A stretch of 64,000 nt of DNA from Escherichia coli 042 (lineage in GTDB: Bacteria > Pseudomonadota > Gammaproteobacteria > Enterobacterales > Enterobacteriaceae), in the NCBI RefSeq assembly GCF_000027125.1, contig NC_017626.1; one strand, given 5' to 3'. Positions 37,690 to 41,809 of this stretch are shown here, in pieces. Below the pieces are notes generated by a model. That model saw nothing but the letters and a program-made list of their open reading frames with translations, was not told where the DNA came from and did not search any database. Each line of letters begins with the position of its first letter. The first letter of the stretch is position 1. Made by a program: the position numbers and the translations under genes.

Positions 37690-38640
37690 ATGAACGAGTT
37701 AGACGGCATCAAACAGTTCACCACTGTCGTGGCAGACAGCGGCGATATTGAGTCCATTCGCCATTATCATCCCCGGGATGCCACCACCAATCCTTCGCTG
37801 TTACTCAAGGCTGCCGGATTATCACAATATGAGCATTTAATAGACGATGCTATCGCCTGGGGTAGAAAAAATGGCAAAACCCAGGAACAACAGGTGGTCG
37901 CAGCGTGTGACAAACTGGCGGTCAATTTCGGTGCTGAAATTCTCAAAATCGTACCCGGTCGCGTGTCAACAGAAGTTGATGCACGCCTCTCTTTTGATAA
38001 AGAAAAGAGTATTGAGAAAGCGCGCCATCTGGTGGACTTGTATCAGCAACAAGGCGTTGAGAAATCACGCATTCTGATCAAGCTGGCTTCAACCTGGGAA
38101 GGAATTCGCGCGGCAGAAGAGCTGGAAAAAGAAGGTATTAACTGCAACCTGACGCTGCTGTTTTCTTTTGCACAGGCGCGGGCCTGTGCAGAAGCAGGCG
38201 TTTTTCTGATTTCGCCGTTTGTCGGGCGTATTTATGACTGGTATCAGGCACGCAAGCCGATGGACCCGTATGTGGTGGAAGAAGATCCGGGCGTTAAATC
38301 GGTGCGCAATATCTACGACTACTATAAGCAACACCACTATGAAACCATTGTGATGGGCGCGAGCTTCCGTCGCACCGAACAAATCCTCGCCTTAACCGGC
38401 TGCGATCGACTGACTATCGCACCGAATTTGCTGAAGGAGCTGCAGGAAAAAGTTTCGCCAGTGGTACGTAAATTAATCCCACCTTCTCAGACGTTCCCAC
38501 GCCCAGCTCCCATGAGCGAAGCGGAGTTCCGTTGGGAGCACAATCAGGATGCGATGGCGGTAGAAAAACTGTCTGAAGGCATTCGTCTGTTCGCCGTTGA
38601 TCAACGCAAACTGGAAGATCTTCTTGCCGCCAAACTTTAA
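37690..38640 (+). CDS. talA: Transaldolase A
   Basis: 316-aa [26 protein letters not shown]...; followed by tktB. Confidence 0.96.
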
Positions 38641-38659
38641 ACCAGCCACGGAGTGTTAT

Positions 38660-40663
38660 ATGTCCCGAAAAGACCTTGCCAATGCGATTCGCGCACTCAG
38701 TATGGATGCGGTACAAAAAGCCAATTCTGGTCATCCCGGCGCGCCGATGGGCATGGCTGATATTGCCGAAGTGCTGTGGAACGATTTTCTTAAACATAAC
38801 CCTACCGACCCAACCTGGTATGATCGCGACCGCTTTATTCTTTCCAACGGTCACGCGTCGATGCTGCTCTACAGTTTGCTGCATCTGACCGGTTACGACC
38901 TGCCGCTGGAAGAGCTGAAGAACTTCCGTCAGTTGCATTCAAAAACCCCAGGTCACCCGGAGATTGGCTATACGCCAGGTGTTGAAACCACCACCGGTCC
39001 ACTTGGACAAGGTTTGGCGAACGCCGTCGGGCTGGCGATAGCAGAGCGTACACTGGCGGCGCAGTTTAACCAGCCGGATCATGAAATTGTCGATCACTTC
39101 ACCTATGTGTTTATGGGCGACGGCTGCCTGATGGAAGGTATTTCCCACGAAGTCTGTTCGCTGGCGGGCACGCTGGGACTGGGCAAGCTGATTGGTTTTT
39201 ACGATCACAACGGTATTTCCATCGACGGTGAAACCGAAGGCTGGTTTACCGACGATACGGCAAAACGTTTTGAAGCCTATCACTGGCATGTGATCCACGA
39301 GATCGACGGCCACGATCCGCAGGCGGTGAAGGAAGCGATCCTTGAAGCGCAAAGCGTGAAAGATAAGCCGTCGCTGATTATCTGTCGTACGGTGATTGGC
39401 TTTGGATCGCCGAATAAAGCAGGTAAGGAAGAGGCGCACGGCGCACCACTGGGGGAAGAAGAAGTGGCGCTGGCACGGCAAAAACTGGGCTGGCACCATC
39501 CGCCATTTGAGATCCCTAAAGAGATTTATCACGCCTGGGATGCCCGCAAAAAAGGCGAAAAAGCGCAGCAGAGCTGGAATGAGAAGTTTGCCGCCTATAA
39601 AAAGGCTCATCCGCAACTGGCAGAAGAGTTTACCCGTCGGATGAGCGGTGGTTTACCGAAGGACTGGGAGAAAACGACTCAGAAATATATCAATGAATTA
39701 CAGGCGAATCCGGCGAAAATCGCCACCCGTAAGGCTTCGCAAAATACGCTTAACGCTTATGGCCCCTTGCTACCGGAGCTGCTCGGCGGTTCGGCGGATC
39801 TGGCTCCCAGCAACCTCACCATCTGGAAAGGTTCTGTGTCGCTGAAGGAAGATCCTGCGGGCAACTATATTCACTACGGGGTGCGTGAATTTGGTATGAC
39901 CGCTATCGCCAATGGCATCGCGCACCACGGTGGATTTGTACCGTATACCGCGACGTTCCTGATGTTTGTTGAATACGCCCGTAACGCCGCGCGGATGGCG
40001 GCACTGATGAAAGCGCGGCAGATTATGGTTTATACCCACGACTCAATTGGCTTAGGGGAAGATGGTCCGACCCACCAGGCTGTTGAGCAACTGGCCAGTT
40101 TGCGCTTAACGCCAAATTTCAGCACCTGGCGACCGTGCGATCAGGTGGAAGCAGCGGTGGGCTGGAAGCTGGCCGTTGAGCGCCACAACGGACCGACGGC
40201 ACTGATCCTCTCCAGGCAGAATCTGGCCCAGGTGGAACGTACGCCGGATCAGGTTAAAGAGATTGCTCGTGGCGGTTATGTACTGAAAGACAGCGGCGGT
40301 AAGCCAGATATTATTTTGATTGCCACCGGTTCAGAGATGGAAATCACCCTGCAAGCGGCAGAGAAATTAGCGGGAGAAGGTCGCAATGTACGCGTAGTTT
40401 CCCTGCCCTCGACCGATATTTTCGACGCCCAGGATGAGGAATATCGGGAGTCGGTGTTGCCTTCTAACGTTGCGGCTCGCGTGGCGGTGGAAGCAGGTAT
40501 TGCCGATTACTGGTACAAGTATGTTGGTCTGAAAGGGGCAATTGTCGGGATGACGGGTTACGGGGAATCTGCTCCGGCGGATAAGCTGTTCCCGTTCTTT
40601 GGCTTTACCGCCGAGAATATTGTGGCAAAAGCGCATAAGGTGCTGGGAGTGAAAGGTGCCTGA
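38660..40663 (+). CDS. tktB: Transketolase 2
   Basis: Track ORF starts upstream inside talA; product from [27 protein letters not shown] is 667 aa with RBS (acggagtgttatATG). Confidence 0.96.
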
Positions 40664-40688
40664 TGGTGATCGCCGGATGCTGTATGTT

Positions 40689-40726
40689 CCCCTCACCCTA
40701 ACCCTCTCCCCAGAGGGGCGAGGGGA
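40689..40726. repeat. GC-rich palindromic intergenic repeat between convergent tktB and ypfG
   Basis: cccctcaccctaaccctctccccagaggggcgaggggac forms an imperfect hairpin; element family not assigned with confidence. Confidence 0.45.
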
Positions 40727-40765
40727 CGGTCCGTGCGCTTTTTAGGGGCGCATCTGGGATTTTGT

Positions 40766-41809
40766 TTAACGGGTGATCCACAACGTGGGCCAGGCGTCTG
40801 GCCCATGCCAGTTATCACAGGTGGGTTCTGCGGCGTAACGCACCAGGCGAAAACGCTGACCGTCAAAACGCCAGCGCGCCTGAATGCCACAATCGCTTAA
40901 TCCGCGCCCTTTTGCTAAGGTCACCAGTTCACGCGATTTTTCATCGAATGTTGCGTTCATCAGTTCCAGTTCATTCGTCTCCTGACCGCTGTTGAACGGC
41001 AAACGTAACCGAACCGGGCGCGAGGCCAGTGGCTTTTTACGCGACACAATCCAGGCCAAATCAATGGTGTTATAGGCCCCTGCCTCACAGCTAATCATCA
41101 TCAGCGCTTTATCATCGGTCAGCGCAGTGACATTTACCTCTCGACGCAATGGATCAAGCGAGCAGCGCAGACCATTCATCCGCCAGTTTCCATAATCCAG
41201 CAAATCGTTGCGTTCTTCGAGTGAGAGTGGCGTCGGCGTTGGGTTAACCACCGCGACCTCTTTCAGCGCAGGCGCGGGCGGTACGCTGAGCGGCGGTTCG
41301 TCCCCTTTCTTGATCCACGCGGTTTCACTGCCAACGCGCTTTTGCTGAGCATCAATAAACAACAACGCCGCTTTTAAGCCGCTCAGAGAGATGGTCTGAT
41401 TGCCGTCGCGTAAGGTGATTGCCTTCCCTTCCTGAATCAGCTGCAAAAACGCGGTGATGGTTGCCGTATCATCGGTTACTAATAACCATGGTGAAATCCG
41501 CCACTTGTCACCACTTAACGCCAACGGCTCACCATCTAACAGCAGCCGTGGCGCTATCTCCCCTTCAGACGCATCCGGCGACTTCAACCCGCCGCGCTCA
41601 ATACGTAAAACGGCATCGGTATGCGCCCCGGCGCTGCGGCTCAGGGTCATCACCAGTCCGTTATGATCGCCCGTATTGCGCGCCACACAAAAATTTTGAT
41701 TATTACAGGTGACCTGCCAGTCGGAAAACGCCCGTTGCGCTGGTGCCGCCCACACCAAAGACGTCGGCAACAAAGCGAAAAAAAAGAGAAGGAAAATGCG
41801 ATAGCGCAT
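40766..41809 (-). CDS. ypfG: Uncharacterised periplasmic protein YpfG
   Basis: 347-aa ORF with signal peptide MRYRIFLLFFFALLPTSLVWA. Confidence 0.88.
   Translation of the reverse strand: MRYRIFLLFFFALLPTSLVWAAPAQRAFSDWQVTCNNQNFCVARNTGDHNGLVMTLSRSAGAHTDAVLRIERGGLKSPDASEGEIAPRLLLDGEPLALSGDKWRISPWLLVTDDTATITAFLQLIQEGKAITLRDGNQTISLSGLKAALLFIDAQQKRVGSETAWIKKGDEPPLSVPPAPALKEVAVVNPTPTPLSLEERNDLLDYGNWRMNGLRCSLDPLRREVNVTALTDDKALMMISCEAGAYNTIDLAWIVSRKKPLASRPVRLRLPFNSGQETNELELMNATFDEKSRELVTLAKGRGLSDCGIQARWRFDGQRFRLVRYAAEPTCDNWHGPDAWPTLWITR

What the first reader, a model, noticed from the sequence alone, without database searches (positions are those of the whole stretch)
40664..40765. GC-rich palindromic repeat at the tktB/ypfG convergence point
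The spacer is dominated by ccctcaccctaaccctctcccc-aga-ggggcgagggg, an imperfect GC hairpin. It probably acts as a bidirectional terminator or insulator, but its repeat family is unclear to me.
Basis: seen in the sequence. Interest (0 to 1): 0.25.

Follow-up and report, generated by a model that had tools for sequence, protein, structure and literature searches.

The report
BoxC repeat downstream of tktB
The GC-rich palindrome between tktB and ypfG is one copy of BoxC, a long-known dispersed E. coli repeat (also called PIT or TMECO) that here takes the place of the REP element found in most strains, and nothing shows it works as a two-way terminator.

Summary
The 102-bp spacer between tktB (ends 40663, +) and ypfG (40766-41809, -) holds a three-block GC-rich element, CCCCTCACCC-TAA-CCCTCTCCCC-AGA-GGGGCGAGGGG.

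Its family can be named. On the minus strand (40690-40724) it fits the published BoxC/PIT/TMECO consensus exactly. Its 36-nt core is identical to four copies listed for E. coli K-12. E. coli genomes carry a median of 19 places similar to it, all intergenic in the rows shown.

At this locus it is a strain-variable allele. About 830 of 5,426 complete E. coli genomes have it. All seven other alleles I read, K-12 included, have a REP element in the same spot. BoxC alternates with REP/BIME at two further loci.

The "bidirectional terminator" reading is not supported:
- The ypfG-direction RNA has no U-run after the hairpin.
- A consensus terminator scan finds nothing.
- The family was reported to lack terminator activity.
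- K-12 Term-seq shows adk transcripts passing through a BoxC copy to a canonical terminator beyond it.

In the tktB direction the long hairpin is followed directly by UUUUU. This T-run is shared by 5 of 13 copies, so weak one-way termination or 3'-end protection remains possible but untested.

Verdict: a known element of low interest.

The parts
40690..40724 (-). BoxC / PIT / TMECO core, type A with one mismatch: CCCTCGCCC-CTCTG-GGGAGAGGG-TTA-GGGTGAGGG (plus G at 40689)
   Evidence: Exact match to the published consensus CCCTCNCCC N3-6 GGGNGAGGG N3 GGGNGAGGG; 0/100 shuffles. The 36-nt core is identical to MG1655 TMECO nos. 9, 16, 19 and 22 in Table 1 of PMC4666352.
40689..40698 (+). Pyrimidine block CCCCTCACCC (complement of the third purine block)
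   Evidence: Invariant in 13 of 13 E. coli copies aligned; coordinates.
40702..40711 (+). Pyrimidine block CCCTCTCCCC (complement of the second purine block), separated from the first by an invariant TAA
   Evidence: Invariant in 13 of 13 copies; coordinates.
40715..40725 (+). Purine block GGGGCGAGGGG. It pairs with either pyrimidine block. The loop AGA (40712-40714) is the only variable part of the core.
   Evidence: Loop variants across copies: AGA, GGA, GAA, AAA, GAG, AAG, AAAC.
40677..40688 (+). Left outer arm of the element (ATGCTGTATGTT), a diverged form of the family arm GTGCTGGyCTGTT. It overlaps GCCGGATGCTG (40672-40682), which the REP alleles also carry, so this is the likely left junction.
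   Evidence: Alignments A2, A3 and A7; the alx/sstT copy reads CCGATGCTGGCCTGTT.
40726..40738 (+). Right outer arm ACGGTCCGTGCGC (family consensus ACnGTCCGtGCaC)
40739..40743 (+). T-run (TTTTT) directly after the extended hairpin in the tktB direction. The only terminator-like feature in the spacer.
   Evidence: The MFE fold of 40678-40745 (+) puts the last paired base immediately before UUUUUAG, -26.3 kcal/mol, z -1.98. A run of at least 4 T at this position occurs in 5 of 13 copies.
40744..40758 (+). Allele-specific right flank AGGGGCGCATCTGGG, resembling a REP right arm. GCATCTGG (40750-40757) is complementary to CCGGATGC (40673-40680).
   Evidence: The variant allele in strain AR_0077 reads GGGCCGCATCTGCG. 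The segment occurs once per genome and only in the 831 genomes with this allele.
38597..40663 (+). tktB (transketolase 2) coding region; the stop codon TGA ends at 40663
40766..41809 (-). ypfG (DUF1176 protein) coding region, convergent with tktB
40784..40807 (+). Perfect 10-bp hairpin inside the 3' end of ypfG (antisense to it). The K-12 Term-seq plus-strand 3' end at 2,581,778 corresponds to window 40810.
   Evidence: (-19.4 kcal/mol, z -3.87, 0/200 shuffles).

Best explanation
The element is one copy of BoxC, a dispersed E. coli repeat also published as the 'potential intrastrand triplex' (PIT) element and as TMECO type A. It is about 70 bp long. The core has three blocks, two C-rich and one G-rich. 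Weakly palindromic outer arms flank the core, and a short T-run follows it. In this strain it fills the convergent tktB/ypfG spacer in place of the REP element that occupies the same position in all seven other alleles I read, K-12 included. That makes it one allele of an indel-polymorphic intergenic site, not a locus-specific regulatory device. Shown: family identity, copy number, allele distribution, anatomy. Inferred: it is transcribed as part of the tktB 3' UTR and folds into a stable hairpin there. That hairpin may weakly terminate transcription at the adjacent U5 run or shield the mRNA 3' end, as REP hairpins do. It does not terminate ypfG transcription. Inferred: in DNA it is a sequence able to leave the B form, and it marks a spot prone to rearrangement.
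For: Exact fit to the TMECO consensus, with a core identical to four MG1655 copies. The literature equates BoxC, PIT and TMECO and lists BoxC as a known E. coli family of roughly 22-32 copies. Median of 19 similar places per genome in 5,426 E. coli genomes, with no annotated feature under any of the hits listed. Other copies lie at fimH/gntP, bacA/cca, recA/recX, adk/hemH, trmJ/iscR, zntA/tusA, tauD/hemB, fabI/ycjD, pstA/pstB, yjdP/phnP, alx/sstT and gcvP/ygfF, all with a 37-nt invariant core. The allele is in 830-831 of 5,426 genomes, once per genome. All seven other alleles read (MG1655 and six others) carry REP variants. BoxC also alternates with REP/BIME at iscR/trmJ and bacA/cca. No terminator-like site by scan, and no U-run on the minus strand. 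Read-through of a BoxC copy by adk transcripts in K-12 Term-seq. The family is reported to lack promoter and terminator activity.
Against: Nothing contradicts the family assignment. Against 'no dedicated function': the three blocks are 100% identical in 13 copies while flanks and the first loop vary, which points to constraint, gene conversion or very recent spread. The same three-block core is multicopy in distant bacteria such as Mitsuaria, a Methylomirabilota MAG and Contendobacter. The T-run after the element is shared by 5 of 13 copies, and in 4 of those 5 an upstream gene reads toward it. The published negative terminator assay is known to me only through a one-sentence summary. I do not know whether the outer arms and T-run were included in the tested constructs.
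Confidence: 0.85

Rival explanations
1. Bidirectional intrinsic terminator or insulator for the convergent tktB and ypfG transcripts.
For: A stable GC-rich hairpin forms on both strands. It sits exactly between two convergent genes. A T-run lies on the plus-strand side.
Against: No U-run follows the hairpin on the minus strand. The scan gives 0 terminator-like sites. The family is reported to lack terminator activity. adk transcripts read through a copy in the orientation that faces ypfG here. The family shows no consistent orientation or position relative to genes: copies sit inside operons (pstA/pstB, recA/recX) as well as between convergent genes.
Confidence: 0.05
2. One-way module. In the C-rich orientation the full BoxC (outer arms plus T-run) acts as a weak factor-independent terminator or 3'-exonuclease barrier for the upstream gene, here tktB. 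It would be functionally interchangeable with the REP it replaced.
For: The extended hairpin ends directly before UUUUUAG. A T-run at the same position is present in 5 of 13 copies and is the alignment consensus. In 4 of those 5 copies (tktB, fimH, pstA, alx) an upstream gene reads toward it. The alternative allele is a REP, another 3' hairpin element.
Against: The lower stem is weak and G-U rich with internal loops, and only 5 U follow. The scan did not call it. The family-level assay was negative. No Term-seq 3' ends are listed at the K-12 copies with a T-run, though those genes may simply be poorly expressed. In K-12 the only listed plus-strand 3' end near the tktB stop lies beyond the spacer, inside ypfG.
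Confidence: 0.3
3. A non-B DNA (intrastrand triplex / H-DNA-like) element whose main effect is local genome instability, as proposed by Holder et al. 2015.
For: Per that paper, oligonucleotides of this type form very stable triplexes in vitro, and TMECO loci are more variable between strains than control sites. This locus is polymorphic, with at least five alleles. Other BoxC loci are polymorphic too.
Against: [quoted passage not shown] The variability seen here is equally explained by the REP elements, which vary on their own through a 14-nt tandem expansion and a 19-nt duplication. The BoxC allele itself is well conserved across 831 genomes, 675 of them at 99% identity or more over the right junction.
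Confidence: 0.25
4. It is a REP/BIME element.
For: K-12 has a REP at exactly this place. REP-like half-sites CCGGATGC and GCATCTGG flank the element.
Against: The core shares no similarity with the REP consensus, and it aligns perfectly with BoxC copies.
Confidence: 0.01

Closest known systems
BoxC repeat of E. coli = PIT (potential intrastrand triplex) element (Hoyne et al. 2000; Hoyne & Maher 2002) = TMECO type A 'mm' (Holder et al. 2015, NAR 43:10126, PMC4666352)
   Same: Exact fit to the consensus. The 36-nt core is identical to four K-12 copies. It is intergenic and belongs to a multicopy family. It shares the outer arms and has the TTA second loop that defines type A.
   Different: Nothing essential. 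The left arm is diverged (TATGTT for GyCTGTT). This copy is absent from K-12 and occupies a site that is a REP in all seven other alleles read.
REP / PU / BIME elements
   Same: A short GC-rich palindromic intergenic repeat found after stop codons and between convergent genes. It occupies the same sites in different strains (tktB/ypfG, iscR/trmJ, bacA/cca). As RNA it would form a 3' hairpin.
   Different: Unrelated sequence. Three-block purine/pyrimidine mirror architecture rather than a simple stem-loop. About 20 copies rather than several hundred. No known dedicated transposase (RAYT) or binding protein.
Rho-independent (intrinsic) terminators
   Same: A GC-rich hairpin followed by UUUUU in the tktB direction.
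   Different: The hairpin is long, with internal loops and a weak base. The U-run is only 5 long. Nothing comparable exists on the other strand. The family tested negative for termination, and one copy is read through in vivo.

Membership tests
BoxC / PIT / TMECO | Three-block pattern CCCTCNCCC N3-6 GGGNGAGGG N3 GGGNGAGGG | tested here: met
   One exact match at 40690-40724 (-); 0 matches in 100 shuffles. The consensus is quoted from PMC4666352.
BoxC / PIT / TMECO | Type A: TTA in the second loop; 'mm' subtype: one mismatch (CCCTCGCCC against GGGAGAGGG) | tested here: met
   The core CCCTCGCCCCTCTGGGGAGAGGGTTAGGGTGAGGGG equals Table 1 entries 9, 16, 19 and 22.
BoxC / PIT / TMECO | Dispersed multicopy family in E. 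coli (about 20-30 copies in most strains, 1-2 in some strains such as CFT073 and UTI89) | tested here: met
   Median of 19 places per genome, range 3-34. Published per-strain counts.
BoxC / PIT / TMECO | Always intergenic | tested here: met
   It lies in the 102-bp tktB/ypfG spacer. All other copies examined are intergenic.
BoxC / PIT / TMECO | Shared flanking arms beyond the core (the ~56-bp BoxC unit) | tested here: met
   The right arm ACGGTCCGTGCGC matches the consensus. The left arm matches in 10 of 13 positions with one gap.
BoxC / PIT / TMECO | The single strand folds into an intrastrand triplex in vitro | not testable with these tools
   Shown by CD and NMR for type A mm oligonucleotides in PMC4666352; not measured for this copy.
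Intrinsic terminator | GC-rich stem-loop immediately followed by a U-rich tract on the transcribed strand | tested here: inconclusive
   Plus strand: the extended hairpin is followed directly by U5, but the stem base is weak and the consensus scan does not call it.
Intrinsic terminator | The same on the opposite strand (needed for 'bidirectional') | tested here: not met
   The minus-strand hairpin is followed by AACAUACAGCAUCC; 0 scan hits.
Intrinsic terminator | RNA 3' ends map at the U-tract in vivo | not testable with these tools
   I found no data for this allele. In K-12 (REP allele) the plus-strand 3' end maps 44 nt into ypfG. At adk a BoxC copy is read through.
REP / BIME | REP consensus arms GCCKGATGCGRCG ... 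CGYCTTATCMGGCCTAC (recalled from my own knowledge) | tested here: not met
   The core does not align with the K-12 REP at the same site. Only short flanking half-sites resemble REP arms.
Any Rfam RNA family | Score at or above the family's gathering threshold | tested here: not met
   The best hit scores 22.3 bits against a threshold of 40 (Antizyme_FSE), an evident chance match.

The most novel reading that the evidence does not exclude
BoxC may be a cassette that preferentially lands in or swaps with REP/BIME sites. At tktB/ypfG it is bracketed by REP-like half-arms (CCGGATGC ... GCATCTGG; GCCGCATCTGC in a variant allele). At iscR/trmJ and bacA/cca the alternative allele is a BIME. At fimH/gntP and pstA/pstB it abuts a REP. 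If so, a REP-directed insertion or microhomology-driven replacement mechanism exchanges two unrelated 3'-hairpin elements. The full element, with arms and T-run, would then be an orientation-specific 3'-end module for the upstream gene.
Probability: 0.15. Interest if true: 0.45.

Novelty: already known. Interest (0 to 1): 0.15.

Why it matters
It matters little as a discovery. The element belongs to a family described in the 1990s and studied again in 2000-2002 and 2015, and its function is still unknown. The practical value is in annotation. This spacer should be labelled as a BoxC copy and a REP/BoxC polymorphic site, not as a bidirectional terminator. The side observation that BoxC and REP/BIME alternate at the same intergenic sites could guide work on how these repeats spread. 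It could also help test whether they are functionally interchangeable at mRNA 3' ends.

Tried and rejected
- **Rfam scan** of 40300-41100 at a permissive E-value: only sub-threshold chance hits.
- **Promoter and terminator consensus scan:** 0 sites.
- **Whole-spacer folding:** not more stable than shuffles, z -1.1 and -0.9. Only the core is modestly better than shuffles.
- **Covariation test on 13 copies:** uninformative, because the core is invariant and the outer arms are not in the consensus fold.
- **Genome-contig scan with the TMECO pattern:** It never reached Enterobacteria, so it gave no outgroup for this locus.
- **Wrong coordinate shift:** I assumed Table 1 of Holder et al. used NC_000913.2 coordinates and shifted them. 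Six fetched K-12 regions therefore missed their targets. The table is in NC_000913.3 coordinates, and I refetched.
- **Bachellier et al. papers on BoxC/BIME:** the literature searches did not find them. My recollection that the 1997 Genetics abstract mentions boxC insertions in BIME regions stays unverified.
- **Term-seq look-ups at eight K-12 BoxC sites** (fimH/gntP, pstA/pstB, alx/sstT, zntA/tusA, yjdP/phnP, fabI/ycjD, gcvP/ygfF, tldD/yhdP): no 3' ends listed.
- **Supplement of PMC9023263:** not held.
- **Donor locus for the allele-specific right flank:** none found; the segment is unique to this allele.
- **Rejected readings:** REP identity, and a chance palindrome.

Full report
**What is there.** The window is E. 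coli DNA. tktB ends with TGA at 40663 on the plus strand, and ypfG runs from 41809 down to 40766 on the minus strand. The gene names come from RefSeq annotation of records identical over 401 bp and from MG1655. The 102-bp spacer reads TGGTGATCGCCGGATGCTGTATGTT-CCCCTCACCC-TAA-CCCTCTCCCC-AGA-GGGGCGAGGGG-ACGGTCCGTGCGC-TTTTT-AGGGGCGCATCTGGGATTTTGT. The arms 40688-40698 and 40716-40726 are 91% complementary. It is not a plain hairpin. There are two pyrimidine blocks in mirror symmetry and one purine block that can pair with either, and the folding programs switch between the two registers.

**More than chance.** The 23-nt motif and the published 24-specified-base pattern each occur once in the 64-kb window and never in 100 dinucleotide-preserving shuffles. 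A 56-nt query centred on the motif finds a median of 19 places per genome in 5,426 complete E. coli genomes, range 3-34. No annotated feature lies under any listed hit.

**Which family.**
- Read on the minus strand, 40690-40724 is CCCTCGCCC-CTCTG-GGGAGAGGG-TTA-GGGTGAGGG.
- This fits exactly the consensus CCCTCNCCC N3-6 GGGNGAGGG N3 GGGNGAGGG that Holder et al. (NAR 2015, PMC4666352) call TMECO.
- That paper states the motif is the BoxC repeat of the 1990s and the PIT element of Hoyne, Maher and colleagues.
- An independent survey lists BoxC among the known E. coli stem-loop families: 22 copies found, about 32 reported.
- The 36-nt core here is letter-for-letter identical to MG1655 TMECO entries 9, 16, 19 and 22, subtype "A mm".
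- I aligned this copy with twelve others: fimH/gntP, bacA/cca, recA/recX, adk/hemH, trmJ/iscR, tauD/hemB, fabI/ycjD, zntA/tusA, pstA/pstB, yjdP/phnP, alx/sstT and gcvP/ygfF.
- The alignment shows a 37-nt invariant core, variation confined to the first loop, a shared right arm ACnGTCCGtGCaC and a shared left arm GTGCnGGyCTGTT. In 5 of 13 copies a run of at least four T follows the right arm.
- Several copies are composites: a type B core, a ~27-nt linker, then an inverted type A core.
- Rfam has no family for it.

**This locus is polymorphic.**
- MG1655 has no BoxC here. Its 94-bp spacer holds a REP with a duplicated right arm, and none of the 23 published K-12 TMECOs is at this position.
- A 161-nt query spanning the spacer is covered at 80% or more in 830 of 5,426 genomes.
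- The allele-specific right junction occurs in 831 genomes, once each and nowhere else. The allele therefore probably arose once, and no donor copy survives in E. coli.
- Carriers include strains with few BoxC-like places (Nissle 1917) and strains with many. One carrier is 'clone D i2', which has only two TMECOs in total.
- The six other alleles I sampled all carry REP variants: a single REP, the K-12-type 19-nt duplication, or one to four tandem copies of GCCGGATGCTGATT in front of the REP.
- The two allele classes share sequence up to GCCGGATGCTG on the left and from ATTTTGTTTAA on the right.
- The left junction coincides with a stretch (ATGCTG) that resembles the BoxC left arm. The allele-specific right flank (GGGGCGCATCTGGG; GGGCCGCATCTGCG in strain AR_0077) resembles a REP right arm and is complementary to CCGGATGC on the left.
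- From this I infer, with modest confidence, that BoxC replaced the inner part of a REP/BIME, possibly through microhomology.

**The same alternation elsewhere.**
- At trmJ/iscR, O157 strain EC4115 has BoxC where K-12 has a multi-REP BIME.
- At bacA/cca, BL21 has a BoxC pair where K-12 has REPs.
- At recA/recX, strain CV839-06 has about 175 extra bp including BoxC, against a short K-12 spacer.
- The K-12 BoxC copies at fimH/gntP and pstA/pstB directly adjoin REPs.
- From memory, and not verifiable here, the abstract of Bachellier et al. 1997 (Genetics 145:551) already mentions boxC insertions in BIME-containing spacers.

**How it most likely works.** The bidirectional-terminator idea fails on anatomy and on the available experiments.
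- In the ypfG direction the hairpin is followed by AACAUACAGCAUCC, with no U-run.
- The consensus scan reports no terminator-like site on either strand.
- Holder et al. summarise Hoyne & Maher 2002 as finding no promoter or terminator activity and no effect on RNA polymerase.
- In the Term-seq tables of Adams et al. 2021 (PMC7815308), the adk 3' end in K-12 is at 497,939/497,940. That is the end of a canonical hairpin-plus-U terminator 61 nt downstream of BoxC copy no. 6. This copy lies in the G-rich orientation relative to adk, the orientation ypfG would read here, so it is transcribed through.
- In K-12, which has the REP allele, the only listed plus-strand 3' end near tktB is at 2,581,778, 44 nt inside ypfG. 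That is three bases past a perfect 10-bp hairpin conserved in this window at 40784-40807. In K-12 tktB transcripts therefore cross the spacer.

**What stays open.** In the tktB direction, the minimum-energy fold of 40678-40745 closes the whole element into one long, interrupted hairpin (-26.3 kcal/mol, z -1.98). Its last pair sits directly before UUUUUAG. The T-run is the alignment consensus. In four of the five copies that have it, an upstream gene reads toward it: tktB, fimH, pstA and alx. A weak one-way terminator or a 3'-exonuclease barrier is therefore possible, at roughly 0.3. It would make BoxC and the REP it replaced functionally similar. No 3' ends are listed at those K-12 copies, but the genes concerned may be poorly expressed under the conditions used.

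**DNA-level effects.** I cannot test the triplex or instability proposal of Holder et al. They report stable triplexes for single strands in vitro and no footprint in vivo. The polymorphism seen here is at least as attributable to the REP alleles, which vary among themselves. The BoxC allele, by contrast, is 99% identical or better over its right junction in 675 of 831 genomes.

**Comparison and novelty.** The element meets every sequence-level criterion for the BoxC/PIT/TMECO family. It is not a REP, and it does not meet the definition of a bidirectional intrinsic terminator. 'clone D i2', one of the B2 strains Holder et al. count with two TMECOs, carries this allele, so this copy is probably among the 63 loci they catalogued; CFT073 itself was not checked. 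The finding is a known element, correctly seen but functionally over-interpreted.

**Wider distribution.** Even so, it showed the same three-block core at about 140 copies in the betaproteobacterium Mitsuaria chitosanitabida. The core is also present in a Methylomirabilota MAG and a Contendobacter MAG, each with its own lineage-specific flanks. This agrees with the wide distribution Holder et al. report. Why this exact core recurs so widely remains unexplained.

Noticed in passing
window 40784-40807 (+), 3' end equivalent at 40810: A perfect 10-bp hairpin (CGTGGGCCAG-GCGT-CTGGCCCATG; -19.4 kcal/mol, z -3.9) lies inside the 3' end of ypfG, antisense to it. It coincides with the only Term-seq plus-strand 3' end listed near tktB in K-12 (2,581,778). 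It has no U-run, so it is probably a processed or Rho-dependent 3' end of the talA-tktB transcript that overlaps ypfG.
   Followed up: partly
L009:101-296, L001:3640-3735, L008:101-235 (tktB/ypfG spacer in other E. coli strains): The REP alleles of this spacer vary among themselves. The 14-nt unit GCCGGATGCTGATT is present one to four times in tandem, and K-12 has a 19-nt duplication of the REP right arm.
   Followed up: partly
L006:130-510 vs L135:1095-1625; L003:270-520 vs L136:1090-1350; L004:200-520 vs L134:1100-1250: BoxC and REP/BIME are alternative occupants of the same spacer at trmJ/iscR and bacA/cca. At recA/recX a ~175-bp BoxC-containing segment is present or absent. Degenerate type B cores sit about 27 nt from the type A core in these insertions, which suggests the full element is a B-linker-A composite.
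   Followed up: partly
L022-L128 (Mitsuaria chitosanitabida), L014-L021 (Methylomirabilota MAG), L029-L031 (Contendobacter MAG), L129-L133: The same three-block core (CCCTCkCCC ... GGGAGAGGG nnn GGGTGAGGG) is present at about 140 copies in a betaproteobacterium, and also in unrelated phyla, often as inverted pairs 80-150 bp apart. The flanks are lineage-specific (tcttcgggctc in Mitsuaria).
   Followed up: partly
alignment A7 (13 E. coli BoxC copies, including window 40668-40750): All 37 core positions are identical in 13 copies from different loci and strains, while the 3-4 nt first loop takes seven different forms and the flanks diverge. This unusually sharp conservation boundary points to constraint or gene conversion acting on the three blocks.
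   Followed up: no
L005 (adk/hemH spacer); K-12 497,843-497,940: The adk 3' UTR contains a BoxC copy 24 nt after the stop codon, followed 61 nt later by the canonical terminator at which the Term-seq 3' end maps. It is a ready-made natural test case for what BoxC does to an abundant mRNA.
   Followed up: no
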